Shown: positions 1-24,567 of the stretch, in pieces
Numbering within the stretch: position 1 is the first letter of the stretch
Layout: each line of letters starts with the position of its first letter
Assembly: GCA_963695555.1 (NCBI GenBank)
Contig: CAVOGR010000001.1
Coordinates: 832,001-896,000, forward strand
Origin: an uncultured Gemmatimonadales bacterium
GTDB lineage: Bacteria > Gemmatimonadota > Gemmatimonadetes > Gemmatimonadales > GWC2-71-9
Length of the DNA stretch: 64,000 nucleotides
Direction of reading: 5' to 3'
The notes under the pieces: model-generated
What the model was told of the DNA's origin: nothing
The model's database searches: none
The model's input: only the letters and a program-made list of their open reading frames with translations
Position numbers and translations under genes: made by a program

Positions 1-890
1 ATGCTTTGGACGACGCCGCGTACCGCCACCTCGTCTTTACCACTGACGCCGACTCGGGTGCGCTCCGGCGCATTGCCACGGACGAGGGGATCCCGGCCTT
101 GGCCGTTCCGGCCAACGTGGGCGGCCGCTTCAGCGTTCTGTCACCGGTCGGGCTCTTGCCGGCGGCACTGGTTGGTATCGACCCGTCGCAATTGATCGAG
201 GGCGCGCGCCGGGCGGTGGAGCGGGCCGAGTCGGACGCACTCGAGACCAACCCGGCCGCGTTGTACGCGGCACTGCTCTGGGCGGCCGATCACGATCTGG
301 GCGCCCGTATTCACGTCCTCATGCCGTATTCCGACCGGCTGCGCTGGTTTGCCGAATGGTTCAGGCAGCTCTGGGCGGAAAGCCTGGGCAAGCGGCTCAG
401 TCGCGGTGGTCAGGACGTGTGGGCCGGTCCGACACCGCTGGGTGCGGTGGGTGCCACCGACCAGCACAGTCAGGTCCAACTCTTCATGGAAGGCCCGTTC
501 GACAAGGCGATAAGCTTCATCGTGGTCGATCGGCCTCGATCCGACCTTCCCATCCCGGACCCGCCCGGTCTCCCTCCCGAGTTGGCCTATCTGGGCGGGC
601 ACACCCTGGGCGAGCTCCTCGCGGTGGAGGCTCGGGCCACGGCGGGGGCGCTGGCGCAGGCGGGGCGGATGAGTCTCACGATCCGGGTGCCCGAGCTCTC
701 GCCGAGTATCATGGGCGAGCTGCTCATGTTCTTTCAGCTGGCAACCGGATACGCCGGGATCTGGTACGGCGTCAATCCGTTCGATCAGCCCGGCGTCGAG
801 TTGGGCAAACGGCTCACCTTCGGGGCCCTGGGCCGCGCCGGATACGACGCGGTCCAGGGTGACGCAATTCCTCCAGGGGATGAGGTTTAG
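1..890 (+). CDS. pgi: glucose-6-phosphate isomerase (5' part outside window)
   Basis: Motifs VGGRFSVLS, QLWAESLGK, GATDQHSQVQL, NPFDQPGVELGK; frame is open to the window edge. Confidence 0.95.
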   Translation, partial: ALDDAAYRHLVFTTDADSGALRRIATDEGIPALAVPANVGGRFSVLSPVGLLPAALVGIDPSQLIEGARRAVERAESDALETNPAALYAALLWAADHDLGARIHVLMPYSDRLRWFAEWFRQLWAESLGKRLSRGGQDVWAGPTPLGAVGATDQHSQVQLFMEGPFDKAISFIVVDRPRSDLPIPDPPGLPPELAYLGGHTLGELLAVEARATAGALAQAGRMSLTIRVPELSPSIMGELLMFFQLATGYAGIWYGVNPFDQPGVELGKRLTFGALGRAGYDAVQGDAIPPGDEV

Positions 891-965
891 CTCGTTTGAC
901 CGGGGTCCGTCCCCGGTCTAAATTTTGCACGATGGGTTGAGGATTCTTCCAAGGCAAGTGGCGAC

Positions 966-2375
966 ATGACCGATCCAATGCAGCAAGTCGTTGACCTGTA
1001 CGCTGGTGCAGTCTCGCTCGTTCCCGGTGGTGTGCGGCTGCGCGATGCGTCCAAGCTACAGTCCGAGGCCACGGATCGCGTGGTCTGGCAAGCGGTATTC
1101 GGCTCCGAATCGGAGCGTGAGGCGGCGCGGTGGCTGCTCTGGGAGCTGGGCCAGTCGACCGGCGCCCGCCCGGCCTCGATCAATGAGCTGTACATGGCCC
1201 GCGGCCGCGGGGAGTGCAGCGGGTTCACAGTGCCGGCCATCAACGTCCGGGCCATGACCTACGATGTGGCTCGGGCCGTCTTCCGGGCCGCCCGCCGCGG
1301 TCAAGCCGGCGCCATCATTCTCGAGATCGCGCGATCGGAAATCAGCTACACCGCCCAGCGTCCGTCCGAGTACGTGGCGGTGTTGATCGCGGCGGCCCTC
1401 CGGGAGGGGTATACCTCGCCGCTCTTCATCCAGGGCGATCATTGCCAGGTCAACGCCAAGAAGTACGCCCAGGATCCGGAGGGCGAGGTCGGTGAGGTCA
1501 AGAAGCTGATTGCCGAGGAGGTCGCCGCGGGCTTCTACAACATCGACGTCGACACCTCGACCCTGGTCGACCTGTCGAAGCCGACGCTGGAAGAGCAGCA
1601 ACGCACCAATTTCGAGCGCGCGGTCGAGATCACCCGCTTCATCCGCGAGCACGAGCCCGACGGCGTCACCGTGTCGGTCGGAGCGGAGATCGGTGAAGTC
1701 GGGCAGAAGAACAGCACGGTCGAGGAACTCCACGCCTTCATGCAGGGCTACAACCGCGCCTTGGGGGACGCGACCGAGGGGATCAGCAAGATCTCCGTCC
1801 AGACCGGAACCAGCCATGGCGGGGTCGTGCTGTCCGACGGGTCCATTGCCGACGTCAAGCTCGACATCGAGGCGCTCGAGGCGCTGTCCGAGGTGGCCCG
1901 GACGGAGTATGGCCTGGCCGGCGCGGTGCAGCATGGTGCCAGCACGCTGCCGAGTACCGCGTTCGGCAACTTCCCCCGGGTCGAGACCTGTGAAATCCAT
2001 CTCGCCACCAATTTCCAGAACATCATCTTCGACCATCCCAAGCTGCCGGCAGACCTGAGCAAACGGATCCACGAGTGGCTCGACGAGCACACTGCCGGCG
2101 AGCGCAAGCCGGAAGACTCCGATGCTCAGTTCTATTACAAGACCCGGAAGAAGGCGATCGGCCCGTTCAAGAAAGAGCTGTGGTCGCTTCCGGCCGATAT
2201 CCGTCAGGCGATAGCTGCAGATTTGGAGAAAACGTTTAGCTTTCTGTTCGACCAATTGAACGTGAACGGCACAGCCACGCTCGTCGATCGCCACATCCAT
2301 GCGCCGGTGCAGCACCATGCGGCGCTGAAGCCAGTTCTGGCCGTGGCCGTCGACGATCCAGACGCGGGAGAGTAG
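966..2375 (+). CDS. class II fructose-bisphosphate aldolase (long form)
   Basis: VPAIN, QGDH, AEIGEVG, GTSHGG and AVQHGAS metal-binding motifs; follows pgi. Confidence 0.9.
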   Translation: MTDPMQQVVDLYAGAVSLVPGGVRLRDASKLQSEATDRVVWQAVFGSESEREAARWLLWELGQSTGARPASINELYMARGRGECSGFTVPAINVRAMTYDVARAVFRAARRGQAGAIILEIARSEISYTAQRPSEYVAVLIAAALREGYTSPLFIQGDHCQVNAKKYAQDPEGEVGEVKKLIAEEVAAGFYNIDVDTSTLVDLSKPTLEEQQRTNFERAVEITRFIREHEPDGVTVSVGAEIGEVGQKNSTVEELHAFMQGYNRALGDATEGISKISVQTGTSHGGVVLSDGSIADVKLDIEALEALSEVARTEYGLAGAVQHGASTLPSTAFGNFPRVETCEIHLATNFQNIIFDHPKLPADLSKRIHEWLDEHTAGERKPEDSDAQFYYKTRKKAIGPFKKELWSLPADIRQAIAADLEKTFSFLFDQLNVNGTATLVDRHIHAPVQHHAALKPVLAVAVDDPDAGE

Positions 2376-2377
2376 GG

Positions 2378-2797
2378 ATGAAAGCCCAAGACGACCACGA
2401 CGACGTGGTGTACGTCGTTCGTGAACAGGAAGCGCCGCTCAAGTACTTGTTCTGGGGGGCCGCCATCGGCGCGGGTCTCGCCCTCCTCTTTGCGCCCAGC
2501 AGCGGCACGGAAACCCGCCGGCAGATTCGCAGCAAGGCTCGCCGGTTCCGCGCCCTGGCCGAAGAGAAATACGATGAGTTCGAGGATCGGCTGGCCGATG
2601 GCAGTTCCCGGGTCAAGGAGTATGTGGAAGACGGGGTCGAAGACCTGAAGATCCAGGCCGGCGAGCTGACCGACGCGGTCAAGGGTGCCGGGTCGACGGC
2701 ACGGGACGAGCTCGAGCGGCGGCTCAAGGACGCACGGGCGCGGCGCCGTGGTCAGCCCGAGGCCGAGTCGGCTGAGGAAGTGGAGCCGGTGACCTGA
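2378..2797 (+). CDS. YtxH domain-containing protein
   Basis: FWGAAIGAGLALLFAPSSGTETR signature followed by charged helical region. Confidence 0.85.
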   Translation: MKAQDDHDDVVYVVREQEAPLKYLFWGAAIGAGLALLFAPSSGTETRRQIRSKARRFRALAEEKYDEFEDRLADGSSRVKEYVEDGVEDLKIQAGELTDAVKGAGSTARDELERRLKDARARRRGQPEAESAEEVEPVT

Positions 2798-3732
2798 CCG
2801 AACTTCGCCTGGGGGGCTGGCACCGCACCGTCCGCGGCTACCTGCGCCGGACCCTCCAGGCGGCCGACGAAAACAACATCTTCTTTCTCTCCAGCGCGTT
2901 GAGCTTCGACGCGCTGCTCACCGCCGCACCGTTCATCCTCCTCCTCCTGATCATCCTGCCCATGATGATCCAGGTGCTGACCGGCGGCCCGGCCCCGCCG
3001 CTGGACCGCCTGGTCGAGCCGTTCATGCCGCCGCATCAGGCGGTGCAAGGCACTGACCCGTTCGAGGTCTTCGTCGAGCGGCTCCGGCTCGTCACTGCCT
3101 ACCGCGGCCAGATTTCGCTCTACGCCATTCCGTTGTTCATTTGGTTCAGCAGCCGCCTGTTTGCCGGCATGCGCACGGCGCTGAACCACATCTTCGACGT
3201 GTCGGGCCGGCGCACCTTCCGCGGCGGCATCATCCGGAGCTATCTGCTGGGCAAGGCCCGCGACGTCGTGATGGTGTTCGTGACCCTGGGCCTCTTCGTC
3301 GCCAACACCGCCTTCAGCGCTTGGCTTCGGGTCCTCGAGCTGCGGAGCCAGCAGGCGGTGCCCGATTTCCACTTCTTCGTGACCAGCGTGGGTCGCCTGC
3401 TCGCGCTGCTCTTGGCCTACGGCTTCTCACTCTCCCTCTTCTTCGTGCTGTACAAATTTGCGTCCAGCCGGCCGTTGGGGTGGCGGCCGGCGCTGGTGGC
3501 CGCCGCCTTTGCCGCGGTGGCGTTCGAGCTGGCCAAGCAGGTATTCGGGTGGTACATGCAGAACGGGGCCGCGGGACCCGAACGCCTCTCGGTCGGGTTC
3601 AACGTGGGTGCCATCATCCTGTTCGTGTTGTGGGTCTGGTATACCGCGCTGGTGTTCCTGCTCGGCGGGGTGGTGGCGGAGACCTGGAAGCTACGGGCGC
3701 TCCAGCGCGAGCAGCGCGCCATGCTGGCTTGA
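2794..3732 (+). CDS. YihY/virulence factor BrkB family membrane protein
   Basis: Multi-TM protein, LLGGVVAE C-terminal motif; frame open upstream of 2899 (…LQAADENNIFFLSSALSFD), probable CTG start overlapping the ytxH stop. Confidence 0.8.
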   Translation: MTELRLGGWHRTVRGYLRRTLQAADENNIFFLSSALSFDALLTAAPFILLLLIILPMMIQVLTGGPAPPLDRLVEPFMPPHQAVQGTDPFEVFVERLRLVTAYRGQISLYAIPLFIWFSSRLFAGMRTALNHIFDVSGRRTFRGGIIRSYLLGKARDVVMVFVTLGLFVANTAFSAWLRVLELRSQQAVPDFHFFVTSVGRLLALLLAYGFSLSLFFVLYKFASSRPLGWRPALVAAAFAAVAFELAKQVFGWYMQNGAAGPERLSVGFNVGAIILFVLWVWYTALVFLLGGVVAETWKLRALQREQRAMLA

Positions 3733-3879
3733 CCCTTCCCCCAACCGCCCCCCCGCCCGCTATCAGCTACCTCCCTACTCCCCACCCCCCGGTCGGGGTT
3801 CGCGTGACCGAGAAGATCTTCCCCACCGCGGCGGACTTCTGGCGCCAGCGGTTCAGACCGCTAACCAACCCGGTTCCTT

Positions 3880-3927
3880 CTATAGCACCGGTAGACCTGC
3901 CGGCTATAGCACCGGTAGACCTGCCGG
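3880..3927. repeat. perfect 24-bp tandem duplication (CTATAGCACCGGTAGACCTGCCGG x2), each unit with an internal hairpin
   Basis: Direct read of 3880-3903 and 3904-3927; abuts the stop codon of the usher-like gene. Confidence 0.95.
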
Positions 3928-6547
3928 TCAGTCACGGCGTCGGATGATCAGCTCGATGCCTTGGAGGCTAGCCCCTCCGGAGGTCGGTTGGACCCGGAGC
4001 CGAATTGGCTCCGTGGTCTCTGCGGAGGCGTCCAGGAAACCCTCGCTCACGCTCATCTCGTACTCGCCTGGCCGTACACCCAAGGCATAGAACTCACCAT
4101 CGCTGAAGGTCGAGATTTCCCGGCGTTCGCCGGTCTTCAGGTTCGTGAGAAGGAGGATGAGGGAGCCGGCGGGCACGGTGACACCGTCGAAGTGACGGAG
4201 CACGCGTCCCTCGAGTACCCCCGCTTCGATGAGAGGAAGGTCCAACACCCGATAGGAATTCGGGCTTGGCACGATGCTGACCGCCTGGTACTGCGAGACG
4301 AAGAGGGGATTGGGCAGGCTCAGCGAGTCGATCTGGACGATGAGGGGCTCGAACGGCACCAGGTCCCATCGGTCGAAGCGGCCGGTCGAGTCGGTTCGTG
4401 CAATGCTCGACCCTACGATCACCCGCACGTTGGCAATGCCGTCTTCTCCTGGGTCCTGTAACCCGTTCGCATTTTCGTCGAGAACATTCTGCCCGAAGAG
4501 CCGCTACGGTCGACCGACAGGTTAGGAAAGAACTCCATCCGGTCTGCCGCTTGGTTCCAGACTGCCGATCCGCGCATGAGCTGGTAGCCCGTCATCTTGC
4601 CCCCCCCGGGTGCGCTGATTGCCGTGGATGAAGAATGGGAGGCTAACTCAGATGTGAGGGCCAGTGCGAACGTCGTTCCCATTCCGCCATGCTGCCGCCG
4701 GACGCCGCCTTCGATGTGGCTTCCCAACCCGAGGGACCGGGTCGCCGAGAGGCCGGCCCGCATCGGGCGAAGCGAGGTCTCAACCTCGAGGTCGGTCCGA
4801 ACCCAGAATCTTGCCGAGCGACCGGGCCCACGCCGAGGTTGGGGCAGCGAGGTGCGGTCGTGCGGCGAAGCCCTTCGAAGGGGCTGTGGGCTCGCGCTCG
4901 GCCGATCCCAGCTCCCGGCGACGAAGGGGGAGGAAGTGCACCCCATGCGCTCGCGCGGATGCGCCCAGGGTGGCGCGGGTGAGGTCCGCTCGCAGTGTGG
5001 GAGCCGATTGAGGGCTTCCCTCGGAAGTTACCAGGCGCGGTTCTCCCGGTTCGGGCGGTCGAGTTCTTCCGGAGGACTCCACTGGTCGATCCGTTCTGCC
5101 GACGACGTGGGGCGGCGGGGCGGTGGTGTGTAGGGCAAACCCACGACCTCGGCGGCATGCGAGATGAATTCGCCGACGGCTCCGTCACGGACCATGCCTC
5201 GCCCGAACGCCTCTGTTCGACCTCCACCTCCAGTGTCCATCCGTTGCTGGGCCTGCTGCAGCGAGAGGTCCGAGATCATGGAGGTTGCCCAGGGAGCGTG
5301 TCGCGCGAGCGGCAGCGGTGGGAGCACCGACCCGAAGGTGGGGGCGTTGGTGTCGCACCACGTGGCGGAGTCGACGTTGAGGTTCACCTGGCCCGCGCGA
5401 GCGCCCGCGCGTGCGCACGTGCCACCGTGCCACATTCCCCCACCGACCTTTCGGTAGGAGGGCTCCAAGGCTCACGCCACGGTGGGTGGGGTTTGAAACG
5501 CCGTATCCTCACCAGACCATGTGGCGACGCGGATCAATGACTGGGGTCTCTCCACCGTCTGAAGCCGGAGACTCAACCCGTCATCCCGTCTTCCGACGAG
5601 GAGCTGCAAGCAGCGACGAGGCGCCACCTGTTGGTATGCCTCGACCTGCCACCCGGATCGACCGGCCGTCGGTCGACGATGCTGCCCAGGATGAGGACGG
5701 AGGAACGGGGAAGTCGTGGTGCGCGAGGACACCGCGCAGCCCACGGAACCTCGGACCGGTCGCGATCCGTCCCCCACGCGGAGTTGTTGAGCCAGGGGTC
5801 GTCTTGCCGCACCCGGACCCGGGCCCGGACGCGAACACGACCTTCGCCCGCGCGGCCTTCACTTTCGGCCGTCAGGGCCAGTGATCCGCCGAAGGCATCG
5901 TTCCGAGGCCCATCCGATACTGGCTCCCGGCGAGCGGCTCGTCGCTCGGCAGGAGGCCACGATAGTCCATGACCGATCCATCCCACGGGTCCGCACGGTC
6001 CCAGCGTGAGGTCCGGCTCGAGGCCGTCATCGCGACGGAGCAGCGCATTGCGAGCGTGCTACCGCGTGTATCGCCGGGCAATGGGCAGTCCGTCAGCGTC
6101 CATCAACGTAACCCGCGACTCGGACCAGTCGACATCGAAGGCGAAGCCCCGGGCACCCCGGCGACCCGTTGCGTCGTAGTACTCGCCGTCTTGCACGAGA
6201 GCTGCGACGGGCCGGTTTGTATGAACGGTCCGCCATCTGCACTTTGTATCGCCGGGCGTCGATGAGAAAGTCGGTCCCACTCGGTTCGAACCTGGCTTCG
6301 AGCCGCCCGTCGTCATGGACTGGTAGCTCACCTCGGCCAGGTCGAGGAACTGGTCGCGGGTGAGCACGTCATCTCCACCCCGAAATCCCGACACGGTCCG
6401 GGACACCAGTAGTCCCAGGCGGAGACTCGATGATGACCGGCTCGGCACTGGGCAGGCCGCGGCGGACTCGCGCTCGATGGCGATGGACCCGGCGATTGTC
6501 CAACCGAGCGCCACCAGAACCGGTCGATGCCCGTTGGAGACTCGCAT
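3928..6547 (-). pseudogene. usher-like outer-membrane protein with C-terminal carboxypeptidase-regulatory-like (Ig) domains; many frameshifts (decay or read errors)
   Basis: Fragments joined across frames: EPVIIE..LRLGLLVSRTVSGF..QFLDLAEV, FDVDWSE, WQVEAY; intact C-terminus RVIVGS..TDSTGRF..WDLVPFEP..TFSDGEFYALGVRPGEY; last gene of a pilin/chaperone cluster. Confidence 0.65.
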
Positions 6548-6554
6548 GCGTCGG

Positions 6555-7102
6555 CGTGGGGCTCGGTGGATAACCGTGAGGACGACCGTACCGGTGTAAG
6601 ACCGTCGCCTGGGCTGGGCACGGTGTCAGGTCCCGCCGAGCCACACGTACGTGAACGGTAGATGGCGGCGGACCCAGGCGCCCGACCGTGACAACCGATG
6701 GATCGAGGGGATGCCGGCGGCGGGGTCGTTCTGCTGCCTAGCCACGGGCCGAGGTTGGTCCAGAACTGATGGGGGAGCGTGGTGCCGGGCGGGCCCGTGG
6801 TGCTTGGCAGCACTGTCGGCAGGGTGGAGGTCATCGTCATGAAGCGTGGGATTGCCCGTCACCGGGGGAGGGGTCCGGCGGCTCGCATCCGTAGGGGGAG
6901 CACGGTCGTGGCGGGAGACGCCGCCCGGCGCGGTTCCAAGTCGAGGTGGGACAGTCCCCATCTCACTGTGATGCTCAAGCGTGACGACGGTGGCACGTGC
7001 GGTTGCCACGCGCAGGGAGGAGCCCTGGCACGCGGACAGGCGTGGCAGCATCAATGCCCCCGTGCACACCCACAGCCGGGCCAGCCCCTCGGGTCGGATC
7101 AC
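6555..7102 (-). pseudogene. DUF4402/spore-coat-U-like pilin subunit 3 (frameshifted); ends approximate
   Basis: GTG overlaps upstream stop; signal peptide, ARATVV..LSITV, TLPTVL, YVWLGGT..AQATG.YTGTVVLTV C-terminal strand seen across frames. Confidence 0.6.
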
Positions 7103-7934
7103 GGCACGACGACGACGACTACGGTGCGGCGGCTCAATCGGCGGCGGCACCGTATTTCCGACGAAGGTCGTCTCGCTCGCTCACCAGTTCGGTCGCGAGG
7201 GTGTAGCGACCTGCTGGGAGCTTACCTACGGAAGAGCGAAGCCTCGGGGCCGGCGTGTGGTGACGGCGAGCGGCACCGTCGGACTCCGCCTCGGTTTGGC
7301 CCTCGGCGTTCTGGAGCTGCCACTTGAGCGTTCCGATGAACACGCCCTCGCCCTGGCGTTCGAGGTTCATCCCGATCTCGAGCGGGAGGTCGATCCCAGG
7401 CACCTGGGCCCGCGAGTCCGACACGGCGAGGCCAGTCGTCACGTTTCCCTTCCGGTAGCTCAGCGCGATGACCGTCCGCACCTCGAGCGTGGACCGACCT
7501 GGATACCGAGGTCGCTTCCCCCGCGACACCGGACACAGGCACCTGTCCTCCCTTGGCGGCGATGATCGCCGCGTCCAGGTACTTCCCGTCCTCGAGATTC
7601 TGGGGCGGGCGAGCCAGCAGCCGGATGGTCTCGGCACCGTCGCGGCGGCGATCGTGACACGGCGGGGAAAGGCTTGGATCACGTCCGAGCGCCGAGGGGT
7701 GGGTGAGTCGGGTGATTCGATCATGCGGAGCGTCGGTGGCCGGTTGAGTCGGTGACCGGGAATCCGAACGTCGTCGAGCCGGACCTCGACAGGCTCAGTC
7801 CGGGTTGTAGGCCTGGAGCGGTTCGCTTCCGTGTCTGGTCGTCGTCTAGGTGGCATGCGCGCCACCAGCACCCTTGGGCCCGAGCACGCGGGGCGGGCAC
7901 GCGGTACGACTGCGAGTATCAAGAGGTCTCTCAT
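7099..7934 (-). pseudogene. fimbrial biogenesis (PapD-like) periplasmic chaperone (frameshifted)
   Basis: ATGA-coupled start; across frames AQGVLVA, YNP..TEPVEV, FGFPVTDSTG, IQAFPRRVTI, TIRLLARPPQNLEDG.Y, TLEVRTVIALSYRKGNVTTG, LPAGRYTL. Confidence 0.7.
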
Positions 7935-8401
7935 GTCCCGGGACCGCAACGATGAGGGTGACCGTCGCCGGTAGTTCCCGGCGGGCTGGCTCGACACGTG
8001 GCTGGGCCGTCCCACCGATGAACACCGGGCCGTCCCGTTGTGGGGAGGATCGCCGTGTAGGGAGCGCTGGGATCGGATCCCTGTTCGCTGCCCGTCGCTG
8101 GGATCCGGCAAAGCCAGCGTCGTCGGGGCCGATACAAGGGGTATGACCGCCCCATTGGGGCCCGTTCATCTCCTGAGGCTTCCGGACTCGATCATCAGCT
8201 GCGCATTCTTCGCGCCCCGAATCTCTAACTGACCGCTTCTCGCAGGGTCGGTTCTGTGGAACCTGCTCGGGCACGCCGGGAGCAACGTGTAAGTGCGAGC
8301 GATTGCTGTCCCTTCACTCGTAGTGGGGGGCCGCGTCCCTGGAGCGCCGAGCTGTTCGGCGGCAGGAGGGAAAGGGCGGCAGCGACCGCGAGCATCTTCA
8401 C
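7931..8401 (-). pseudogene. DUF4402-like pilin subunit 2 (frameshifted)
   Basis: Signal peptide then LRVKGQQSLA..TLLPGVP..TDPARSGQLEIRG..GAVIPL..GPDDAGF..VFIGGTAQP..AGNY.ATVTLIVA; paralogous to pilins 1 and 3. Confidence 0.65.
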
Positions 8402-8429
8402 GGGATCGGTCTCCGAGAACCTAGCGGGG

Positions 8430-8464
8430 ACCGATGGAGGCCCCAGCTTCGGGCCTCCACCGAT
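8430..8464 (-). terminator. 14-bp stem-loop after the major pilin gene (attenuator or mRNA-stabilising hairpin)
   Basis: ATCGGTGGAGGCCC-gaagctg-GGGCCTCCATCGGT pairs fully (two G-U) only on the minus strand; no clear U-tract. Confidence 0.6.
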
Positions 8465-8484
8465 CTTGGTGTCAGATGGAACCG

Positions 8485-9008
8485 CTGCGGTCCCGTTGTA
8501 GACCACCGTCATCGTGACCGGGGCCGTGTAGATCGCTCGGCGGGCTGGCTGGCGCACGGGGCTCACGGTACGCCAACGAAGACGTGAGCTCCGCCGGGGG
8601 TCGCACCGGTGCTCAACCGGAGACCTAACGGCCGCGGATGGCGTGAATGCCGTGCCGCCGGCCGCAGAGTCGTGGTGTGTGCACACCGGTCCGCCTGCGA
8701 TCGGGAGCACGTTGGCCGCGAAGACCAAGTCCGTCGGAGGCGCAAAGGTGATGTCCAGCACCCACGTTATCTGTTCACGGTGACGGGAAAGTGTCCTGCG
8801 GTCGGATCGGTGACGGCCACGTCACGGGCACGCCCGGAAACACATTGCCGAAGTCGAGGTCCGCGTCCCCTACCACCGCCAGCGGCGTGAGCACCGTCGC
8901 TCGGGCGGTGATGAAATCGGAGTTCTGGGCCTGCGCGGTGGCCGTGGCAAAGCCTGCAACGAGCGCCAGGGCCAAAGCGGCCTTGCAGAAGGTCCTCATG
9001 CTGGTCAT
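8485..9008 (-). pseudogene. DUF4402-like major pilin subunit 1 (frameshifted; start may be 8999; end approximate)
   Basis: Signal peptide ..ATAQA|QNSDFITARATVLTPLAVVGDADLDFGNVFPGV; later frames give LDITFAPPTDL..LPI..GTAFTPS..VFVG.TVSP..IYTAPVTMTVVY. Confidence 0.75.
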
Positions 9009-9079
9009 CCTCTCTCGTGGTTCAGGTAATCATGATGGGGTACTAGGGTGTCCCCACCTAGGCACTTCCCTAGCTCCTG

Positions 9080-9096
9080 AGCAATCCATATGCCAG
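9080..9096 (-). promoter_or_regulatory. sigma54 (-24/-12) promoter for the pilin operon
   Basis: CTGGCATATGGATTGCT on minus strand matches YTGGCA-N6-TTGCW with exact GG-N10-GC spacing, ~70 bp upstream of pilin 1. Confidence 0.75.
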
Positions 9097-9122
9097 GTGC
9101 CTCACACCCCTCATGAAATGTC

Positions 9123-9135
9123 GAATTACTTGATA
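9123..9135 (-). promoter_or_regulatory. IHF-like binding site
   Basis: TATCAAGTAATTC vs consensus WATCAANNNNTTR (1 mismatch), in an AT-rich tract between the sigma54 site and the palindrome. Confidence 0.45.
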
Positions 9136-9176
9136 GTAGTTGGCAGGAAAAATGCTCTAAGTCATTGTACTATATA

Positions 9177-9196
9177 GACTAGGGTAAACCCTAGTC
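9177..9196. promoter_or_regulatory. perfect inverted repeat GACTAGGGT-AA-ACCCTAGTC, candidate activator/enhancer site
   Basis: 9-bp perfect arms; related CTAGGG/CCCTAG half-sites recur at 9042-9073. Confidence 0.6.
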
Positions 9197-9352
9197 AGCG
9201 TATTGGCTTTCGTCGGTTGTTCCTGTTGGCCTGTCGGTAATAGGAGGCGATTTATCGCCTTGGGTGGTAATGAGTTAGCTCGAGGCCTTCTCAGGAGACC
9301 TGGGAGAACGACGCCCGTCGGCTGGGGCTGAATCCTTCGCCTTGGAGGATGG

Positions 9353-9679
9353 ATGGCCACTCGTACCGCAGTTTGCCACGGCTTCGCGGTCCTGACCTTG
9401 GGCATGCTCCTGCTGTTGGCCCCAACGGCACTCGAGGCCCAGGAGAAGCGCTCGGTGACGGTGGGTGCCGCAATCGTCGAGTGTCCCAACCGGCAGGCCC
9501 TCGAGACGGCCATGCGGCTCCTTGCCGATCGACCGATTGCGTTGCTCAATCTCGAAGCGGTGGTCGTCGAGGACACACCCCTGGTCAACGTCACCGTGCT
9601 GGTTCGCCCTCTCGAGCAGAGACCATCGACCGACGCCGAGGCGGAGATCGTGGCGACGATTCACTTCCCGAGGAACTGA
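9353..9679 (+). CDS. small secreted hypothetical protein divergent from the pilin operon
   Basis: GGAGG RBS, Sec signal peptide ending LEA|Q, intact 108-aa ORF. Confidence 0.75.
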
Positions 9680-9771
9680 CTCGGGGCCTCGCTGCCGTTC
9701 GTCCCCTCGAGAGCCCTTGGGGGCGTCCAGTTCAGCATCTTTCCCTCGTTGCACCAGCGGGTTATATTCCC

Positions 9772-9873
9772 GGTGCCTCAGGTCCGAAGGGCGCCGGCGC
9801 GTGAACCGCGTCAGGACCTCGCCGGTAGCAGCGCTAAGCGATGTCCGGTGTCGCTTCGGGGTGCCTGAGGCAT
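9772..9873 (+). ncRNA. ffs: signal recognition particle RNA (4.5S)
   Basis: ~100-nt hairpin closed by GTGCCTCAGG/CCTGAGGCAT; domain IV TCAGG-ACC…GGT-AGCAGC; TATATT -10 just upstream; typical position before dnaX. Confidence 0.88.
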
Positions 9874-9905: not shown

Positions 9906-11572
9906 ATGACCATCGCGCTCGCCCGTCGCTACCGCCCCAAACAGTTCAGCGATCTCCTGGTCCAAGACCACGTCGCGGCCGTGCTGCGCGGTGCGGTCGA
10001 GCACCGCCGGGTCGGCCACGGCTACCTCCTCACCGGCCCGCGCGGCGTCGGGAAGACCACCGCCGCCCGGCTCCTCGCCATGGCCCTCAACTGCGAGCGG
10101 CCCGATGCGGCGCGCCGCCCCCGGCGAGCCCTGCGGAGAGTGCGACGGCTGCCGCCGCATCTGGACCGGTTCCACCAGCCTGGATGTGGTCGAGATCGAT
10201 GCCGCGAGCAACCGCGGGGTCGATGACGCCCGCGATCTCCGGGAGCGGGCCATGTATGCCTCCTCGAAGGAGGGCGGCTACAAGATCTACATCGTGGACG
10301 AAGCGCACATGCTGACCCGCGAGGCTTGGAACGCGCTCTTGAAGATCCTCGAAGAGCCGCCGCCGCGCGTGGTGTTCGTCTTCGCCACCACCGATCCGCA
10401 GAAGATCGCGTCGACGGCGGCACCGGTCCTGTCTCGGCTGCAGCGGTTCGACTTCCGTCGCATCGGCCCGGCGGCCATTCGGCAGCGGCTACGTGAGGTG
10501 GTCGATGCCGAGGGCATCGCGGCCGAGGACGACGCGCTGACCCTGATCGCCCGTCGGGCGGATGGCGGCATGCGCGACGCGCTGTCGGTGCTGGACCAGT
10601 GCTTGAGCCTGGGAGAAGGCGCCGTCACGACGGAGCGGGTGCGGGATGTGTTGGGCGCGGTGGATGACGAGCTCTATGCCGAGTTGCTCGACGCGGTCGC
10701 GGATCGTCGACCGGGCCTCGTCTTTCCCCTGGTCGACCGGCTCATGGACGCGGGCGTCGATCTCGGGGAGTTCATGGCCGGAGCCGCCGACACGCTCCGT
10801 GCCCTGCTCATGGTCAAACTCGGCGCAACGCCGAACGAGCTGACCGACGCCATGCGAGACACGCTCGACCCGGTTCGCGCCGCGGTTCGAGGCGGGCGAC
10901 CTGATCCGGATGCTCAAGCTGCTCGCGGACGACGAAACCAGCATCCGGCGAAGCGTCAATCCGCGCCTCATCGTGGAGACCCTCCTGCTGCGCTGGGCTC
11001 TGCTGGATCGCATCGTCGATCTGGCCCAGGTCCTGTCCGGAGAGTCGGGTTCCACGGCCCCGCAGCATCCTCGGCCAGACACGGGGTCGGCCAAGCCGGC
11101 GCCAATCCCCGCCGTCGACCCGGGCACTGTCGACCCGGACGCTCCTCCCACGGGCCAGCTGAGCGAGGAATGGTTGTCGGGCCACTGGAGCGACTTGGTC
11201 GCCACCGCGCGGACCAAGAGCCCGTTTCTGGGCGAAGCGCTCGCCTCGGCGCGGCCGGTTGCGGTATCGGGGTCCCGCGTGACGCTGGAGATGGCCGACA
11301 TCAATCCCATTTTCCAAGAGACGCTCGAGCGCCAAGTGCGGCAGGTCGAAGCGCTCCTGGCGGCCCACGTGGGGAAGGCCGTGACGGTCGCGGTCACGGC
11401 CGGTGGCACGGAGGCCGCGCCGGCGGGTTCGAAGCCACAGGCAGGGCAGGGTGCACGGCCTCGGCGGCTGTCCGATGCCCAGCTCAAGGCCGAACGACTC
11501 AAGGCCACCCGGGCCGCAGATGCCGCCCTGGATGCGGCGGCCGATGCATTAGATTTAGAGATTGTAGACTAG
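9906..11572 (+). CDS. dnaX: DNA polymerase III subunit gamma/tau (apparent frameshifts near 10115 and 10870, probably read errors)
   Basis: [49 protein letters not shown] spread over three frames. Confidence 0.93.
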
Positions 11573-11580
11573 CCGACCTT

Positions 11581-11597
11581 CTGGCACCCGGTTTGCT
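11581..11597 (+). promoter_or_regulatory. sigma54-like promoter upstream of ybaB-recR-mglBA
   Basis: CTGGCACCCGGTTTGCT matches TGGCAC-N5-TTGCW, intergenic and correctly oriented. Confidence 0.6.
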
Positions 11598-11654
11598 TGT
11601 CCGGGCTGGTGTGCCGGCCTACTTTTGTCCGTTCAGCGTGAAACGACGAGACCA

Positions 11655-11963
11655 ATGGCAGATCTTCAGCAGCTTCTCCAGCTCGGCCAACAGATGCAGG
11701 GTAAGCTCCAGCAGCTCCAGACCGAGCTTGCCGACCGGACCATCGAAGCCTCGGCCGGAGGCGGCATGGTACGGGTGACGGCGGACGGCAGAGGAATGAT
11801 CCGCACGCTCGACATCGATCAAACAGTGTTTGCCGATCACGACGCGGAATTCCTGGCTGACCTGGTGCTGGCCGCCATGTCCGAGGTACAGCGGCGCGCC
11901 GCCGACATCCTCCAGGCGGAAATGCGGAAGGCGCAGTCGTTGCCCATCGCACCGCAACTTTGA
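11655..11963 (+). CDS. ybaB: YbaB/EbfC nucleoid-associated protein
   Basis: QQMQGKLQQLQ..EASAGGGMVRVTADG; between dnaX and recR. Confidence 0.92.
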   Translation: MADLQQLLQLGQQMQGKLQQLQTELADRTIEASAGGGMVRVTADGRGMIRTLDIDQTVFADHDAEFLADLVLAAMSEVQRRAADILQAEMRKAQSLPIAPQL

Positions 11964-11966
11964 GCT

Positions 11967-12560
11967 GTGAGCGTCATCGAGGATCTCATCACCGAACTGG
12001 CGAGGCTGCCGGGCATCGGCCGGAAGACGGCCCAGCGGTTGACCTACCATCTGTTGCGGCAGCCGGGCGAACAGACGGTGCGGCTGGCCGAGTGCCTCCA
12101 GACGGTGGCCGAGCGGGTGGCGCCCTGTTCTGAGTGCGGGATGCCCACCGAGCACGAACGCTGCGGATACTGCAGCGACCCGCGACGGGATGACGGGCTT
12201 CTCTGCGTGGTCGAGGAACCCTCGGGGGTGGAAGTAGTGGAGCGGAGCACTGAATTCCGTGGGCGCTACCACGTCCTTGGCGGCCATTTGTCACCGCTCG
12301 ATGGGATCGGCCCGGATGCGCTCCGGCTCGATCCCCTCGTCCAGCGCGTACGAGGCGGCCGGGTCCAAGAAGTGATCCTGGCGACGAACCCCTCGATGGA
12401 GGGAGAGGCAACGGCAACCTACATCCAGCAGTTGTTGGCGGGCTCAGATGTGAAGGTCACTCGGTTGGCGCGAGGGCTGCCCATGGGCGGCGATCTCGAG
12501 TACGTCGATGGCGTGACCCTGTCACACGCGCTCTTGGCCCGCGAGGAAGTCCGGTCGTGA
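11967..12560 (+). CDS. recR: recombination mediator RecR
   Basis: LPGIGRKTAQRL, C4 zinc finger, YHVLGG.LSPLDGIGP, ILATNPSMEGEATA. Confidence 0.97.
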   Translation: MSVIEDLITELARLPGIGRKTAQRLTYHLLRQPGEQTVRLAECLQTVAERVAPCSECGMPTEHERCGYCSDPRRDDGLLCVVEEPSGVEVVERSTEFRGRYHVLGGHLSPLDGIGPDALRLDPLVQRVRGGRVQEVILATNPSMEGEATATYIQQLLAGSDVKVTRLARGLPMGGDLEYVDGVTLSHALLAREEVRS

Positions 12561-12826
12561 GACCGCGTGCGGCATTCGTCGCCGCCGGGGCAGTGGCCGG
12601 CATCGCCACCGGGTGGCTGTTCGCGCGGCAGCACCTCGTGCGCCACCGACGCGACCTGTTCCACCCCAGTCCACTTCGGCGGCTGGCCGCCATCGGGTTC
12701 CTCGCCGGCCACCCGGGGGTGGATGCATTGGCGACGCTTCGGGACTACCTGCGATGGGAACCCCAACTCTTGCTGCGCCGCCGCGCGGGCTACGTGCTGC
12801 GACGCATGGAAGCGCGACTCGGGTGA
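12557..12826 (+). CDS. small membrane-anchored protein with HEAT-like helices
   Basis: GTGA overlaps with both recR and mglB; N-terminal TM, LRRLAAIGFL…LRDYLRWE. Confidence 0.7.
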   Translation: MRPRAAFVAAGAVAGIATGWLFARQHLVRHRRDLFHPSPLRRLAAIGFLAGHPGVDALATLRDYLRWEPQLLLRRRAGYVLRRMEARLG

Positions 12827-13329
12827 CGGGTCAAGACAGAACGGGCGCCTCGAGTTGGTCGTTCCGGGAGGAAGATTCCCGCCGGATTACGAGCATCCTC
12901 AACGAATTCTTGCAGGTATCGCGGGCCCGGACCGCGCTCATCGTCGACCGAAACGGGCAGATGATCGCGACGGTCGGTGAGCAGACCGCCTTCGATCCGC
13001 TCGCGTTTGCGTCCCTCACAGCGGCGGACTTCAGTGCGAACGACCAACTGGCGCGCCTGATCGGCGAGCCGGAGTTCGGGTCCCTCTTTCACCAGGGCGA
13101 GAAGGACTCGATGTACCTGGCTGACATTGCCCGCCGTGTGATCCTGGTGGTGCTCTTCGACAATCAAACCACGTTGGGATTGGTGAAGTTGCGGGTCAAA
13201 TCGGCCGTCGGGTCGCTCAATCACGTGTTCATCGAAATGCAGGCGCGGGAGGAAGCCGGTGCCAATCGGGTCGAGTCTGGATTTGTCGGCGATGCAGAAG
13301 ACGAAATCGACAGGCTCTTCGGAGAATAG
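12823..13329 (+). CDS. mglB: roadblock/LC7 domain protein MglB (GAP for MglA)
   Basis: ALIVDRNGQMIA, FASLTAADFSA, LFHQGEKDSMY, LVVLFDNQTTLGLVKLR; precedes mglA. Confidence 0.92.
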   Translation: MTGQDRTGASSWSFREEDSRRITSILNEFLQVSRARTALIVDRNGQMIATVGEQTAFDPLAFASLTAADFSANDQLARLIGEPEFGSLFHQGEKDSMYLADIARRVILVVLFDNQTTLGLVKLRVKSAVGSLNHVFIEMQAREEAGANRVESGFVGDAEDEIDRLFGE

Positions 13330-13344
13330 GGAGACGAGCCGCTC

Positions 13345-14019
13345 ATGTCGATGATCAACTACGCGTCCCGCGAGATCAACTGCAAGCTCGTCTACTACGG
13401 CCCCGGGCTGGGCGGGAAGACGACGAACTTGGAGCACGTGTTCTCGAAGATCGCGCCGACGGCCAAGGGGAAGATGATCTCGCTCGCCACCGAAACCGAG
13501 CGAACCCTCTTCTTCGATTTCCTCCCGGTCGATCTCGGAACCATCCGCGGCTTCAAGACGCGGTTCCACCTGTATACGGTGCCCGGGCAGGTCTACTACA
13601 ATGCATCGCGGAAGTTGATTCTCAAAGGCGTCGATGGCGTCGCGTTCGTGGCCGACAGCCAGATCGAGCGCATGGAGGCCAACATCGAGTCGATGCAGAA
13701 TCTCTATTCCAATCTGGCGGAGCATGGCTACGACCTCACGCAGATTCCGTTCGTCATCCAGTACAACAAACGGGACTTGCCGAACGCCGCTCCAATCCAG
13801 GAGCTCCAGGCGGCGATCAACCCGGGCTGGCCGGTGGAGGACGTTACCCGCCAGCGACTGACGCCGGATCCGCTGCACGAAGGCGAGTTCTTCATCGAGC
13901 AGGTCGATGGTCACTGGGTCGAGCGGGCTCCCTATTTCGAATCGGTCGCAACCAGTGGCGACGGCGTGTTCGACACCCTCAAAGCGCTGAGCAAGCTTGT
14001 CATCAAGACTCTAGGGTAA
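13345..14019 (+). CDS. mglA: small GTPase MglA
   Basis: [44 protein letters not shown]. Confidence 0.96.
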
Positions 14020-14029
14020 GGGGTTCCCC

Positions 14030-14668
14030 ATGTGGACCCTGCCGAACATCATCACCATCATCCGCATCGCGATGACACCGGTCATCGCCCTGCTCCCCTT
14101 CATTGACGGATACTGGCCCAAGCTCATCGCCTTCGTGGTGTTCATCTTGGTCGCGGTGACCGATGTGTGGGATGGGTACCTGGCTCGCTCCAGAAATCAG
14201 GTCACCGATCTCGGTAAAGTGCTGGATCCGCTCGCAGACAAATTGCTCCTGGTCGCGGCCCTCGTTCCCATCTACTGGATATCCAAGCACCGGCAAGATC
14301 TCTATGGCATCCCGATCTGGGGTAGCATCCCGCTCTGGGTCTGCTTCCTTCTGCTCGGCCGCGAGTTTGCCATGACCGGATTCCGCGCCTGGGCCCAACG
14401 CCGAGGCGTGGTCATCGCCGCCGGGCCGGCCGGCAAGCTCAAGACCACGTTTCAGAATATCTTCATCGGGGCCATGATGGCCTGGTTCGCCTTTCGCGAT
14501 GCCCGCCGCCCGCTGGGGTGGGAAGGCAACAGCGTGGCCAACTTCTGGAACGAATTTCATGGGGGCTTCGTTGCCATTACGCTCGGGACGGCGGCACTCC
14601 TGACCGTATACTCATTCGTGGTCTACGTCTTCCGCTACCGCGCCCTCTTCTCCTCACGCCCGCACTAG
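14030..14668 (+). CDS. pgsA: CDP-alcohol phosphatidyltransferase (PgsA-like)
   Basis: LPNIIT..R, D..DGYLAR..QVTDLGKVLDPLADK. Confidence 0.88.
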   Translation: MWTLPNIITIIRIAMTPVIALLPFIDGYWPKLIAFVVFILVAVTDVWDGYLARSRNQVTDLGKVLDPLADKLLLVAALVPIYWISKHRQDLYGIPIWGSIPLWVCFLLLGREFAMTGFRAWAQRRGVVIAAGPAGKLKTTFQNIFIGAMMAWFAFRDARRPLGWEGNSVANFWNEFHGGFVAITLGTAALLTVYSFVVYVFRYRALFSSRPH

Positions 14669-14673
14669 CGCTC

Positions 14674-15912
14674 TTGGACCTCGAACTCGTTACCATCGGC
14701 ACCGAGCTCCTGCTCGGCCTGACCGTCGATAGCAACACCGCGGACCTCGCCCAGATCCTCGCGCCGCACGGAATCCGGATCGTGCGACGAACCACCGTGC
14801 CAGACACGGTGACGAGCATTCACGATGCGGTGCATGAGGCGCTCGGGCGAACCGGCCGAGTGATCACCGTCGGCGGACTGGGCCCCACGAAGGACGACCT
14901 GACCCGGGACGTCGTGGCCCGGCTGTTCGACGCGCCGGTCACGTTCGACGAGCACGTGTGGAACGACCTCCTCACGCGATATCGCCGCGTCGGCCGTGAG
15001 CCGTCCGGCAGTAATCGCTCCCAAGCGATGATTCCGCGGGGCGCGACCGTGCTGCCGAACCGCTGGGGCACCGCCCCCGGTCTCTGGCTCGAGGGTCCCC
15101 TCGGGCTCGTGGTGATGCTGCCCGGCGTCCCGCACGAGATGCGGAAGCTGGCCAAGCACGAAGTCGGTCCACGCTTGGCCCCAGAAGATGGAGCTCAGGC
15201 GCCGATTGTGTCGCACGTGCTTCGGACCGCCGGCATCGCGGAATCCATGCTGGCTGACCGGCTCGGCGACATCGAGGACGTCATTCGGCCCGTCACCCTG
15301 GCGTATCTGCCACAAGTTGCCGGCGTGGACCTGCGCCTCACCTCCTGGAACGCGCCCCGGGCCCAAGCGGAGCAACGGTTTCGCGATGCCGCAGTGGAGG
15401 TCCGGAGGCGTGCCGGCGACCACTGCTACGGCGAGGGCGCGACCGACCTCGCCGCGGTAGTGCTCGACCGCGCGCGCCGGGCCGGGCTGACCATCGCCGT
15501 GGCGGAGTCCTGTACGGGTGGCTTGCTCGCCGGCCGCCTGACCGCGGTACCGGGGAGTTCCGATGTGTTCATCGGCGGTGTCGTCGCCTATCACAATCGG
15601 GTGAAGACCGACTTCCTCGGGGTCACTGAGGAGCTGATCGCCGACCACGGGGCGGTGAGTGAGGCCGTGGCACGAGCCATGGTCCAGGGCACCCGGGCGC
15701 GGTTCCTGCCCGACATTGCGCTCAGTATCACCGGTATCGCCGGCCCGGACGGCGGCTCGGCCGAGAAACCGGTCGGGACGGTGTGGATCGGGCTCTCCGT
15801 CGGGGCGGAGGAAGGCGCACTCCATCGCATCTACCATGGCAGCCGCTGGCAGATCCGGGAGCGGGCGGTGGCAGGAACACTGTACGAACTGCTCCTCCGC
15901 CTGCCAGTGTGA
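14674..15912 (+). CDS. cinA: competence/damage-inducible protein A (MoCF + PncC domains)
   Basis: TTG start; IGTELLLG..DSN, GGLGPTKDD, AESCTGG, HGAVS, ITGIAGPDGG..KPVGTV. Confidence 0.93.
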   Translation: MDLELVTIGTELLLGLTVDSNTADLAQILAPHGIRIVRRTTVPDTVTSIHDAVHEALGRTGRVITVGGLGPTKDDLTRDVVARLFDAPVTFDEHVWNDLLTRYRRVGREPSGSNRSQAMIPRGATVLPNRWGTAPGLWLEGPLGLVVMLPGVPHEMRKLAKHEVGPRLAPEDGAQAPIVSHVLRTAGIAESMLADRLGDIEDVIRPVTLAYLPQVAGVDLRLTSWNAPRAQAEQRFRDAAVEVRRRAGDHCYGEGATDLAAVVLDRARRAGLTIAVAESCTGGLLAGRLTAVPGSSDVFIGGVVAYHNRVKTDFLGVTEELIADHGAVSEAVARAMVQGTRARFLPDIALSITGIAGPDGGSAEKPVGTVWIGLSVGAEEGALHRIYHGSRWQIRERAVAGTLYELLLRLPV

Positions 15913-15921
15913 CCGGCATTC

Positions 15922-15938
15922 CTGGTATGTGGTTTGCC
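15922..15938 (+). promoter_or_regulatory. possible sigma54 promoter upstream of grpE-dnaJ
   Basis: CTGGTATGTGGTTTGCC has GG-N10-GC spacing, intergenic, 45 bp before grpE. Confidence 0.45.
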
Positions 15939-15982
15939 ATTATCTTCCTGAGTCCATTTGATACATCAGGAGAAGACGACTA

Positions 15983-16642: not shown

Positions 16643-16650
16643 AGGCGGGC

Positions 16651-17739: not shown

Positions 17740-17741
17740 CG

Positions 17742-19877: not shown

Positions 19878-19908
19878 CCGGTCAACCCTCCACCATCGGT
19901 CGCGCTCG

Positions 19909-20304: not shown

Positions 20305-20331
20305 GTCCGGGGGCCCTCTGGTACACGTTGC

Positions 20332-24564: not shown

Positions 24565-24567
24565 GGC

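What the first reader, a model, noticed from the sequence alone, without database searches (positions are those of the whole stretch)
3928..9008. Hidden non-classical chaperone-usher-like pilus operon: three DUF4402-type pilins, a chaperone and an usher-like protein
Seen: the ORF track is fragmentary, but joining frames on the minus strand gives five consecutive genes: pilin1 (9008-~8485), pilin2 (8401-7931), chaperone (7934-7099), pilin3 (7102-~6555) and a ~870-aa outer-membrane protein (6547-3928). Two junctions are ATGA/GTGA-coupled. The three small proteins share a signal peptide, an LDFG-like motif (clear in pilin1, degraded in the others), an LP(I/T) core, a V(F/W)xGGT-like motif and a terminal Y-x-x-x-VT/VLTV strand. 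Established: signal peptide, N-terminal donor strand and an alternating C-terminal strand is the architecture of chaperone-usher pilins such as the Csu/spore-coat-U family. Inference: this is an atypical fimbrial/adhesion secretion system with an usher unlike FimD/PapC in its readable parts. I know of no characterised example in this lineage, and automated annotation would miss it here.
Basis: partly seen in the sequence, partly recalled or inferred. Interest (0 to 1): 0.82.

Follow-up and report, generated by a model that had tools for sequence, protein, structure and literature searches.

The report
Divergent chaperone-usher pilus operon, assembly-damaged
This five-gene cluster most likely builds a hair-like surface fibre by the well-known chaperone-usher route, using parts too diverged for standard annotation; the kit is common and apparently unstudied in Gemmatimonadota, and this particular copy looks shredded most likely because of sequence-assembly errors.

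Summary
Observation confirmed. Five minus-strand genes (pilin, pilin, chaperone, pilin, usher) align end to end with intact homologues but carry 83 frameshifts. The indels are confined to a ~6-kb variable island and are most likely assembly errors; source reads were not seen. In intact same-genus homologues the large protein folds like the FimD/PapC usher (Foldseek E 1.5e-27; Z 22.3, 614 residues) despite no Usher Pfam match. The pilins are DUF4402 (120 of 122) and fold like CfaE/CsuE/CsuA/B (Z 8.0-8.6). The chaperone's only two invariant residues match the non-classical Pro/Arg89 signature. A chaperone-pilin model shows donor-strand complementation (0.77 vs 0.00 controls). The operon is conserved in 51 of 51 well-flanked Gemmatimonadota loci. 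It differs from Csu: no conserved pilin disulfide, no two-domain adhesin in the operon, one pilin lacking a donor strand, and an SdrD-B-like usher C-terminal domain. No paper in the searched library names DUF4402. This scan already found the class in at least 24 other genomes. Verdict: new variant of a known kind.

The parts
8486..9008 (-). Pilin 1 (DUF4402), probable major subunit: signal peptide, about 15-residue N-terminal extension (putative donor strand), Ig-like core. Start at 8999 or 9008; 7 frameshifts in this assembly
   Evidence: intact homologues DUF4402 E 2.9e-7 and 1.9e-6; model of the G004 copy closest to CfaE, CsuE, CsuA/B. 'Major' is inferred from gene order
7931..8401 (-). Pilin 2 (DUF4402-like) without the N-terminal extension: probable single-domain tip/initiator subunit; 9 frameshifts
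   Evidence: the last pilin before the chaperone is short in 58 of 59 assigned cases (18 unassigned). Tip role is inferred
7099..7934 (-). Periplasmic chaperone of the non-classical (CsuC/EcpB/CfaA-like) type, 276 aa in homologues; ATGA-coupled to pilin 2; 16 frameshifts
6563..7102 (-). Pilin 3 (DUF4402), minor subunit with N-terminal extension, optional in the family; GTGA-coupled to the chaperone; 14 frameshifts
   Evidence: present in 16 of 51 well-flanked loci
3928..6557 (-). Outer-membrane usher, 869 aa in homologues: N-terminal domain (~42-182), barrel with plug (~198-661), SdrD-B-like CTD1 (~677-772), CnaB/CarboxypepD_reg-like CTD2 (~771-869); 37 frameshifts, last 166 codons in one open frame
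9169..9198 (-). Sigma-70-like consensus site upstream of pilin 1 (9 of 12 matches); consensus match only
   Evidence: 1 found, 0.1 expected from shuffles
9353..9679 (+). Divergent 108-aa ORF with a signal-peptide-like N-terminus, on the same island; function unknown; no pilin similarity
   Evidence: homologues in 2 of 80 loci, both same genus; 0 of 80 other family genomes with this query
3790..9757 (.). Variable island between a YihY/BrkB-family gene (2899-3732) and the SRP RNA gene (9776-9873); indels are dense inside (about 4480-9010) and nearly absent outside

Best explanation
The locus is a genuine chaperone-usher (CU) pilus operon of a divergent, uncharacterised DUF4402 clade, and its frameshifts are most likely assembly errors in a low-depth variable island. 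Likely mechanism: Sec exports the pilins (inferred from signal peptides). The chaperone completes each pilin's Ig fold by laying its G1 strand parallel to the pilin's last strand (modelled) and holds the pilin's C-terminal region with the non-classical Arg89-type residue (conserved; contact modelled). The usher recruits chaperone-pilin complexes. The extension-less pilin 2 enters first and caps the tip; pilin 1, with some pilin 3, then polymerises by donor-strand exchange and is threaded through the barrel (inferred from known CU systems and from which pilins have the extension). The product is a thin surface fibre for attachment or biofilm formation (inferred, not shown).
For: Usher: AlphaFold model of the G001 copy (pLDDT 84.4). 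The top 15 Foldseek ranks and the next listed row are FimD/PapC (E 1.5e-27 to 2.4e-10). In the unbiased search of 48,161 chains the top four are FimD/PapC (Z 21.1-18.8; next 13.9). FimD 9fw9_D aligns over model 190-865 (Z 22.3, rmsd 10.9, 614 residues). Pilin: 120 of 122 aligned homologues match DUF4402; model pLDDT 88.9; four of the top five structural matches are CU pilins (CfaE Z 8.6, rmsd 2.7, 116 residues; CsuE 8.1; CsuA/B 8.0). Chaperone: P93 and R124 are the only invariant columns in 131 homologues; R124 aligns with the EcpB arginine in hhalign (probability 60.7, E 8.3e-5); PMC4654587 (passages) names this Pro and Arg89 as the two residues shared by archaic and alternative chaperones; Y224 is kept in 118 of 131; PapD_N matches 21 of 131 at E<=0.01. 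Complex: score 0.77, best of 3 controls 0.00 (mark reached by 116 of 157 solved complexes and 2 of 215 mismatched pairs); runs agree in at least 52% of contacts, partner pLDDT at least 79; chaperone 146-156 pairs in parallel register with pilin 157-167, and R124 is in the interface. Synteny: pilins-chaperone-(pilin)-usher on one strand in 51 of 51 loci with enough flank, of 80 examined. Assembly error: 175 indel events and 460 substitutions in 4,387 aligned bases at 4480-9010 against same-genus G004, 83 extra and 92 missing; 5 gap columns in 14,942 at 10313-25254 and 6 at 1-3768. G004 has four intact ORFs plus the usher start. Contigs in runs X2 and X3 skip the island (joints 3854>9757 and 3732>9773).
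Against: All structural tests were on homologues, not on the window's own broken genes. The complex paired a G001 chaperone with a G004 pilin (pilins 89% identical); one of three runs scored only 0.15, and CU chaperone-pilin complexes are solved, so the pass may reflect likeness. Pilin Z-scores (8.0-8.6) are only just above the level common for beta-sandwiches, and an archaeal cannula subunit ties at 8.1. No equivalent of CsuC Arg174 is evident at the expected spacing, Y224 is not among the confident interface residues, and pilins 1 and 2 run about 3 residues past the terminal aromatic position, so the carboxylate anchor may differ. The usher N-terminal domain (42-182) was not matched to FimD/PapC and could not be folded alone. 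No run held more than 23% of the stretch's words, so the assembly-error reading was not checked on source reads. No fibre has been seen.
Confidence: 0.85

Rival explanations
1. The operon is a real CU system in relatives, but this genome's copy is a decaying pseudogene cluster and the frameshifts are biological.
For: The damage is confined to a dispensable island while flanking genes are clean. Same-genus G002 lacks the operon. Source reads were not seen.
Against: One indel per about 25 bases, an indel-to-substitution ratio of 175:460, and extra bases about as common as missing ones fit raw long-read error better than decay (general knowledge, not tested here). The last 500 bases of the usher gene are almost clean (1 non-triplet indel in bin 4001-4500). 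A short-read contig in run X2 matches 3888-4291 with no difference, while another X2 contig inside the damaged part (8040-8382) differs by 18 letters and 9 gaps.
Confidence: 0.1
2. The CU machinery secretes a non-fibrillar product (capsule, coat or surface layer, as described for Yersinia F1 or the Myxococcus spore-coat CU system) rather than a pilus.
For: No two-domain adhesin in the operon. PMC13734109 (passages) notes CU operons that secrete capsule or spore-coat material.
Against: An extension-less subunit plus extension-bearing subunits is the layout of a capped linear polymer. Such a polymer could still collapse into a coat, so this evidence is not decisive.
Confidence: 0.2
3. The large protein is not an usher but an unrelated outer-membrane barrel with SdrD-B/carboxypeptidase-regulatory domains, as Pfam labels suggest, and the small proteins are unrelated secreted Ig-like proteins.
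For: 0 of 23 homologues match Usher, PapC_N or PapC_C at E<=1; no NCBIfam usher match; hhalign to single FimD and EcpC sequences is not significant.
Against: FimD/PapC stand 5 Z units or more above all other barrels and the match includes plug and C-terminal domains. ESM Atlas structure neighbours include PF00577 clusters (TM 0.51-0.52). Co-location with chaperone and pilins in 51 of 51 loci.
Confidence: 0.02

Closest known systems
Archaic (sigma) CU pili: Acinetobacter baumannii Csu (CsuA/B-A-B-C-D-E), Pseudomonas aeruginosa CupE
   Same: Several single-domain pilins plus chaperone and usher in one operon; chaperone with the invariant Pro and Arg89-type residue and a conserved domain-2 Tyr; pilin model matches CsuE (Z 8.1), CsuA/B (8.0) and CupE1 (7.2).
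   Different: Pilins are DUF4402, not SCPU (120 vs 2 of 122). No conserved disulfide: 71 of 122 mature pilins have no Cys, whereas CsuA/B and CupE1 have one. No two-domain CsuE/CupE6-like adhesin in the operon. No evident Arg174 equivalent. The usher has no PF00577 match.
Alternative (alpha) CU pili: E. coli ECP (EcpABCDE), CFA/I (CfaABCE)
   Same: Best pairwise chaperone match is EcpB (hhalign probability 60.7, E 8.3e-5; weak PDB sequence hit 5dfk E 1.3). Best pilin structural match is the CfaE pilin domain (Z 8.6). CFA/I pilins lack the disulfide (recalled).
   Different: No significant sequence match of usher to EcpC or of pilin to EcpA; no two-domain tip adhesin (EcpD/CfaE) in the operon.
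Classical CU ushers FimD and PapC (type 1 and P pili)
   Same: Barrel, plug and two C-terminal domains superpose.
   Different: 11-13% identity in structural alignments. In the weak FimC alignment (probability 1.3%) the classical Arg8/Lys112 anchor positions fall on variable small residues. CTD1 resembles the SdrD B domain (4jdz, Z 11.2, rmsd 1.8, 92 residues) and keeps a conserved D-x-N-x-N-G-x-x-D-x-x-E loop, which in SdrD binds calcium (recalled).
FGL-type polyadhesins (Saf, Afa/Dr, Caf1)
   Same: Fibre of single-domain subunits with no lectin-type adhesin, in some cases capped by a subunit without a donor strand (recalled for SafD/AfaD); Caf1 is among the pilin structural matches.
   Different: Those use classical chaperones; here the chaperone has the non-classical signature.

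Membership tests
Chaperone-usher pathway (superfamily) | Outer-membrane usher with barrel, plug and C-terminal domains | tested here: met
   Model of the G001 homologue vs FimD/PapC: E 1.5e-27; Z 21.1, rmsd 4.8, 355 residues to the FimD barrel; Z 22.3, rmsd 10.9, 614 residues, model 190-865
Chaperone-usher pathway (superfamily) | Usher N-terminal domain of PapC_N type | tested here: inconclusive
   A ~140-residue folded N-terminal domain is present but lies outside the aligned ranges; no PapC_N hit in 23 homologues; not folded alone
Chaperone-usher pathway (superfamily) | Periplasmic chaperone with the superfamily-invariant proline | tested here: met
   P93 in 131 of 131; PapD_N in 21 of 131 at E<=0.01; criterion from PMC4654587 passages
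Chaperone-usher pathway (superfamily) | Pilins with an incomplete Ig fold completed by the chaperone G1 strand | tested here: met
   By prediction only: pilin model matches CU pilins; complex 0.77 vs best control 0.00 with parallel pairing of chaperone 146-156 and pilin 157-167; may reflect likeness to solved complexes
Chaperone-usher pathway (superfamily) | Genes co-located in one operon | tested here: met
   51 of 51 well-flanked loci, of 80 examined
Chaperone-usher pathway (superfamily) | Donor-strand exchange polymer on the cell surface | not testable with these tools
   Needs expression and EM; pilin-pilin pairing was not modelled
Non-classical (archaic + alternative) chaperones | Arg89-type residue on strand F1 | tested here: met
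   R124 in 131 of 131, 31 residues after the invariant Pro (30 in CsuC, 29 in EcpB); aligned to the EcpB Arg; in the modelled interface
Non-classical (archaic + alternative) chaperones | Domain-2 Tyr196/Arg174 pair completing the carboxylate anchor | tested here: inconclusive
   Y224 in 118 of 131; no conserved Arg 21-22 residues before it; Y224 not among confident contacts; equivalence is by spacing only
Archaic (sigma) Csu/CupE family | SCPU (PF05229) pilins | tested here: not met
   SCPU in 2 of 122, DUF4402 in 120 of 122 at E<=0.01
Archaic (sigma) Csu/CupE family | Conserved pilin disulfide | tested here: not met
   71 of 122 mature pilins have no Cys, 33 have one, 18 have two; no conserved Cys column
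Archaic (sigma) Csu/CupE family | Two-domain tip adhesin in the operon | tested here: not met
   None in the window or in G001/G003/G004; no conserved gene directly after the usher in 64 loci; upstream flanks and unlinked genes were not surveyed systematically
Archaic (sigma) Csu/CupE family | Usher falls in the sigma clade of the usher phylogeny | not tested
   The usher does not align to known ushers by sequence, so no tree was built
Classical CU (Fim/Pap) | Chaperone Arg8/Lys112-type anchor | tested here: inconclusive
   The FimC alignment is weak; the corresponding columns hold mostly small residues (positions 29 and 158)

The most novel reading that the evidence does not exclude
DUF4402 operons form a separate major clade of chaperone-usher pili, outside the alpha-sigma scheme and widespread in environmental phyla. 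They would build disulfide-free fibres capped by a single-domain, donor-strand-less pilin in place of a two-domain adhesin, through an usher whose first C-terminal domain carries an SdrD-like calcium-binding loop that may regulate chaperone-pilin handover.
Probability: 0.35. Interest if true: 0.65.

Novelty: new variant of a known kind. Interest (0 to 1): 0.45.

Why it matters
It gives DUF4402, and a large set of proteins labelled 'hypothetical' or 'carboxypeptidase regulatory-like', a testable role as a CU pilus kit that HMM-based annotation misses. A chaperone profile finds 2,771 clusters at 50% identity with E<=0.001 and 446 at E<=1e-30; strong hits occur in 58 of 200 sampled Gemmatimonadota genomes. 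It offers a candidate attachment organelle for an abundant, mostly uncultured phylum, and a test of whether CU fibres can be built without pilin disulfides or a two-domain adhesin. The mechanism itself is a known one, this scan has reported the class many times, and the copy in this window is the worst one to work on: use G001, G003 or G004.

Tried and rejected
Pfam on the window's own fragmentary ORFs gave nothing for pilins or chaperone. NCBIfam gave no usher or pilin match in 14 proteins; one distant chaperone hit PRK09918 at E 0.005. Sequence searches of the PDB: pilin profile 0 hits at E<=10; usher profile hit only NOMO2/SdrD/UafA-type domains and one WW domain; chaperone profile gave SafB (E 0.87) and EcpB (E 1.3), while its top two rows (abrin A chain, E 0.011-0.022, 60 residues) were judged chance and not followed. 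hhalign of usher to FimD/EcpC, of pilin to FimA/EcpA and of chaperone to FimC was not significant; the targets were single sequences. A self-trained frame-switch model did NOT flag the island (1 switch in bin C1:835001, genome median 2), probably because it treats such dense damage as non-coding. The simpler coding-coverage measure did (0.4% covered vs median 86% over 1,409 bins). Rfam found no riboswitch in the window, only the SRP RNA, so the c-di-GMP riboswitch noted for another genome (e1-5226164) has no support here. The divergent ORF at 9353-9679 is not pilin-like. RNA run X1 has contigs over most of the operon of a related strain, but contigs cannot show expression and DNA carry-over was not controlled; not used as evidence. 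Small-share runs were not used for habitat. Programmed frameshifting was rejected: 83 breaks, none present in the intact homologues used. Literature: 8 searches found no description of this clade in their listings; 'DUF4402' occurs in 0 papers. The library lacks most subscription papers, and supplements were not searched.

Full report
Observation. The plain ORF track over 3928-9008 is fragmentary; only the last 166 codons of the large gene are open. That piece found 14 longer homologues, 12 of them 815-869 aa, and matches in 18 of 41 genomes, the window's own included. Same-genus G001 and G003 carry an intact pilin-pilin-chaperone-pilin-large gene cluster, and G004 carries it at the same chromosomal site. 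A frameshift-aware alignment recovers all five window genes over their full length at 67-77% identity, with 7, 9, 16, 14 and 37 frameshifts. The usher starts near 6557, not 6547. Record titles of the closest loci name Gemmatimonadales/Gemmatimonadota.

Why the frames are broken. Against G004, 4480-9010 holds 175 indel events (83 extra, 92 missing; 140 of one base) and 460 substitutions in 4,387 aligned bases. The flanks hold 6 gap columns in 1-3768 and 5 in 14,942 columns at 10313-25254. Coding coverage of the damaged part is 0.4% against a genome median of 86%; a frame-switch model failed to flag it. The region is a variable island between a YihY/BrkB gene and the SRP RNA: G002 has a different cassette there, encoding DUF11 and OmpA-domain proteins, and contigs in runs X2 and X3 join across it. 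In run X2 summed contig depth is 8-22 on the left flank and 0-4 over the operon; this is a rough measure that includes other organisms. One X2 contig equals the clean end of the usher gene exactly (404 bases), and another inside the damaged part differs by 18 letters and 9 gaps. The simplest reading is an island carried by part of the population, assembled from few noisy long reads and left unpolished. This is inferred: no run held more than 23% of the words, so a pseudogene stays possible (about 0.1).

Usher. The G001 protein (869 aa, 23-sequence alignment) folds with pLDDT 84.4. Foldseek's best hits are FimD and PapC (E 1.5e-27 to 2.4e-10). A search of 48,161 representative chains puts four FimD/PapC chains on top (Z 21.1-18.8; next 13.9). 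FimD 9fw9_D aligns over residues 190-865 (Z 22.3, rmsd 10.9, 614 residues). Yet 0 of 23 homologues match Usher/PapC Pfam models; 23 match CarboxypepD_reg and 22 SdrD_B. CTD1 superposes on SdrD B (Z 11.2, rmsd 1.8, 92 residues) and keeps D687, N689, N691, G692 and E698; a calcium site is inferred from recalled SdrD biology. The N-terminal domain (about 42-182) was not matched and remains untested.

Chaperone. Among 131 homologues only P93 and R124 are invariant. [quoted passage not shown] Y224 (118 of 131) may be the domain-2 tyrosine; an Arg174 equivalent is not evident. PapD_N matches 21 of 131 weakly.

Pilins. 120 of 122 aligned homologues match DUF4402 and 2 match SCPU; the set was gathered with a pilin profile, so this describes the family, not an independent sample. 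The G004 pilin 1 model (pLDDT 88.9) is closest to CfaE, CsuE and CsuA/B, tied with an archaeal cannula subunit (Z 8.0-8.6); these scores are modest. There is no conserved cysteine. Two length classes exist. The pilin just before the chaperone is short in 58 of 59 assigned cases (18 unassigned). Earlier pilins are long in 56 of 72 (14 short, of which 10 look like motif mis-picks; 2 intermediate; 7 unassigned). Pilins after the chaperone are long in 20 of 26 (2 unassigned). A subunit with no donor strand can only start the fibre, so pilin 2 is the likely tip (inference).

Complex. Chaperone (G001, 22-276) with pilin 1 (G004, 25-171) scored 0.77, best of 3 controls 0.00; the mark was reached by 116 of 157 solved complexes and 2 of 215 mismatched pairs. 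Runs agree in at least 52% of contacts, partner pLDDT is at least 79, and one run scored 0.15. Chaperone 146-156 pairs in parallel with pilin 157-167, with residues 22-29 and R124 also in the interface. This is the donor-strand-complementation geometry, but like complexes are solved, so the pass shows likeness, not binding.

Distribution. Of 80 loci kept from 332 in the genome collection, the 51 with enough flank all read pilins-chaperone-(pilin)-usher: PPCU 32, PPCPU 16, PPPCU 2, PPPPCU 1. These were picked by chaperone similarity and are kin. No conserved gene follows the usher in 64 loci. The chaperone profile hits 58 of 200 other phylum genomes at E<=1e-60 (my count; 76 of 201 at E<=0.001) and 2,771 clusters overall. 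ESM Atlas look-alike clusters are commonest in Gemmatimonadota, with others in Balneolota, Bacteroidota, Pseudomonadota, Fusobacteriota and Cyanobacteriota; these are leads only.

Comparison and novelty. It works like a non-classical CU system and meets the CU superfamily tests that could be run. It fails three Csu/CupE features (SCPU pilins, disulfide, in-operon two-domain adhesin; PMC4654587, PMC10104325 passages), so I do not file it as a sigma member. PMC13734109 (passages) says the archaic clade holds many divergent operons of unknown function, so nesting within or beside sigma is not excluded. PMC9452303 (passages) was read for the Csu clinch mechanism; whether this fibre has one was not tested. 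'DUF4402' occurs in 0 papers of the searched library, and seven other searches (listings only) showed no description of this clade. This scan has noted the class in at least 24 other genomes, including another Gemmatimonadales; I had reached this reading before looking.

Verdict. A real, widespread, uncharacterised variant of chaperone-usher pili; mechanism confidence 0.85; interest 0.45. This copy adds little beyond showing that such loci can hide in error-rich islands of long-contig assemblies.

Noticed in passing
L034 (G002:C10:144500-163000), same site as window 3790-9757: Same-genus G002 carries a different ~16-kb cassette at this site: several DUF11 proteins, a 1,907-aa ORF with DUF11, SdrD_B and OmpA domains, and a 780-aa Ig-like ORF on the other strand. 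The YihY-to-SRP-RNA gap looks like a hotspot for swappable surface-structure cassettes.
   Followed up: partly
window 9353-9679 (+): 108-aa ORF with a signal-peptide-like start, divergent from the operon; homologues only beside the operon in two same-genus genomes (93% and 64%), none in 80 other family genomes with this query.
   Followed up: partly
window about 3880-3930: A ~24-base stretch is present twice head to tail just after the usher stop, each copy with an inverted repeat (read); it may be a terminator duplicated by the assembly.
   Followed up: no
window 9991-11778 (+), dnaX-like gene: The gene is split over two frames near 10870-10910; contigs of all four runs lack one base at 10868 relative to the window, so this is probably a single assembly error, not a programmed shift.
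   Followed up: partly
G000 C5:430001-442500, C8:40001-52500, C7:250001-260000, C1:392501-400000: Other stretches with very low coding coverage, some also rich in frame switches; they may be further error-rich islands hiding genes, or RNA operons.
   Followed up: no
G199 and G109: These genomes have 10 and 8 matches to the chaperone profile, one strong and the rest weaker, suggesting several divergent CU chaperone paralogues.
   Followed up: no
L027:9084-9716 (G010); L020 chaperone (G020): G010 has an extra pilin after the usher; the G020 chaperone is split in two frames.
   Followed up: no
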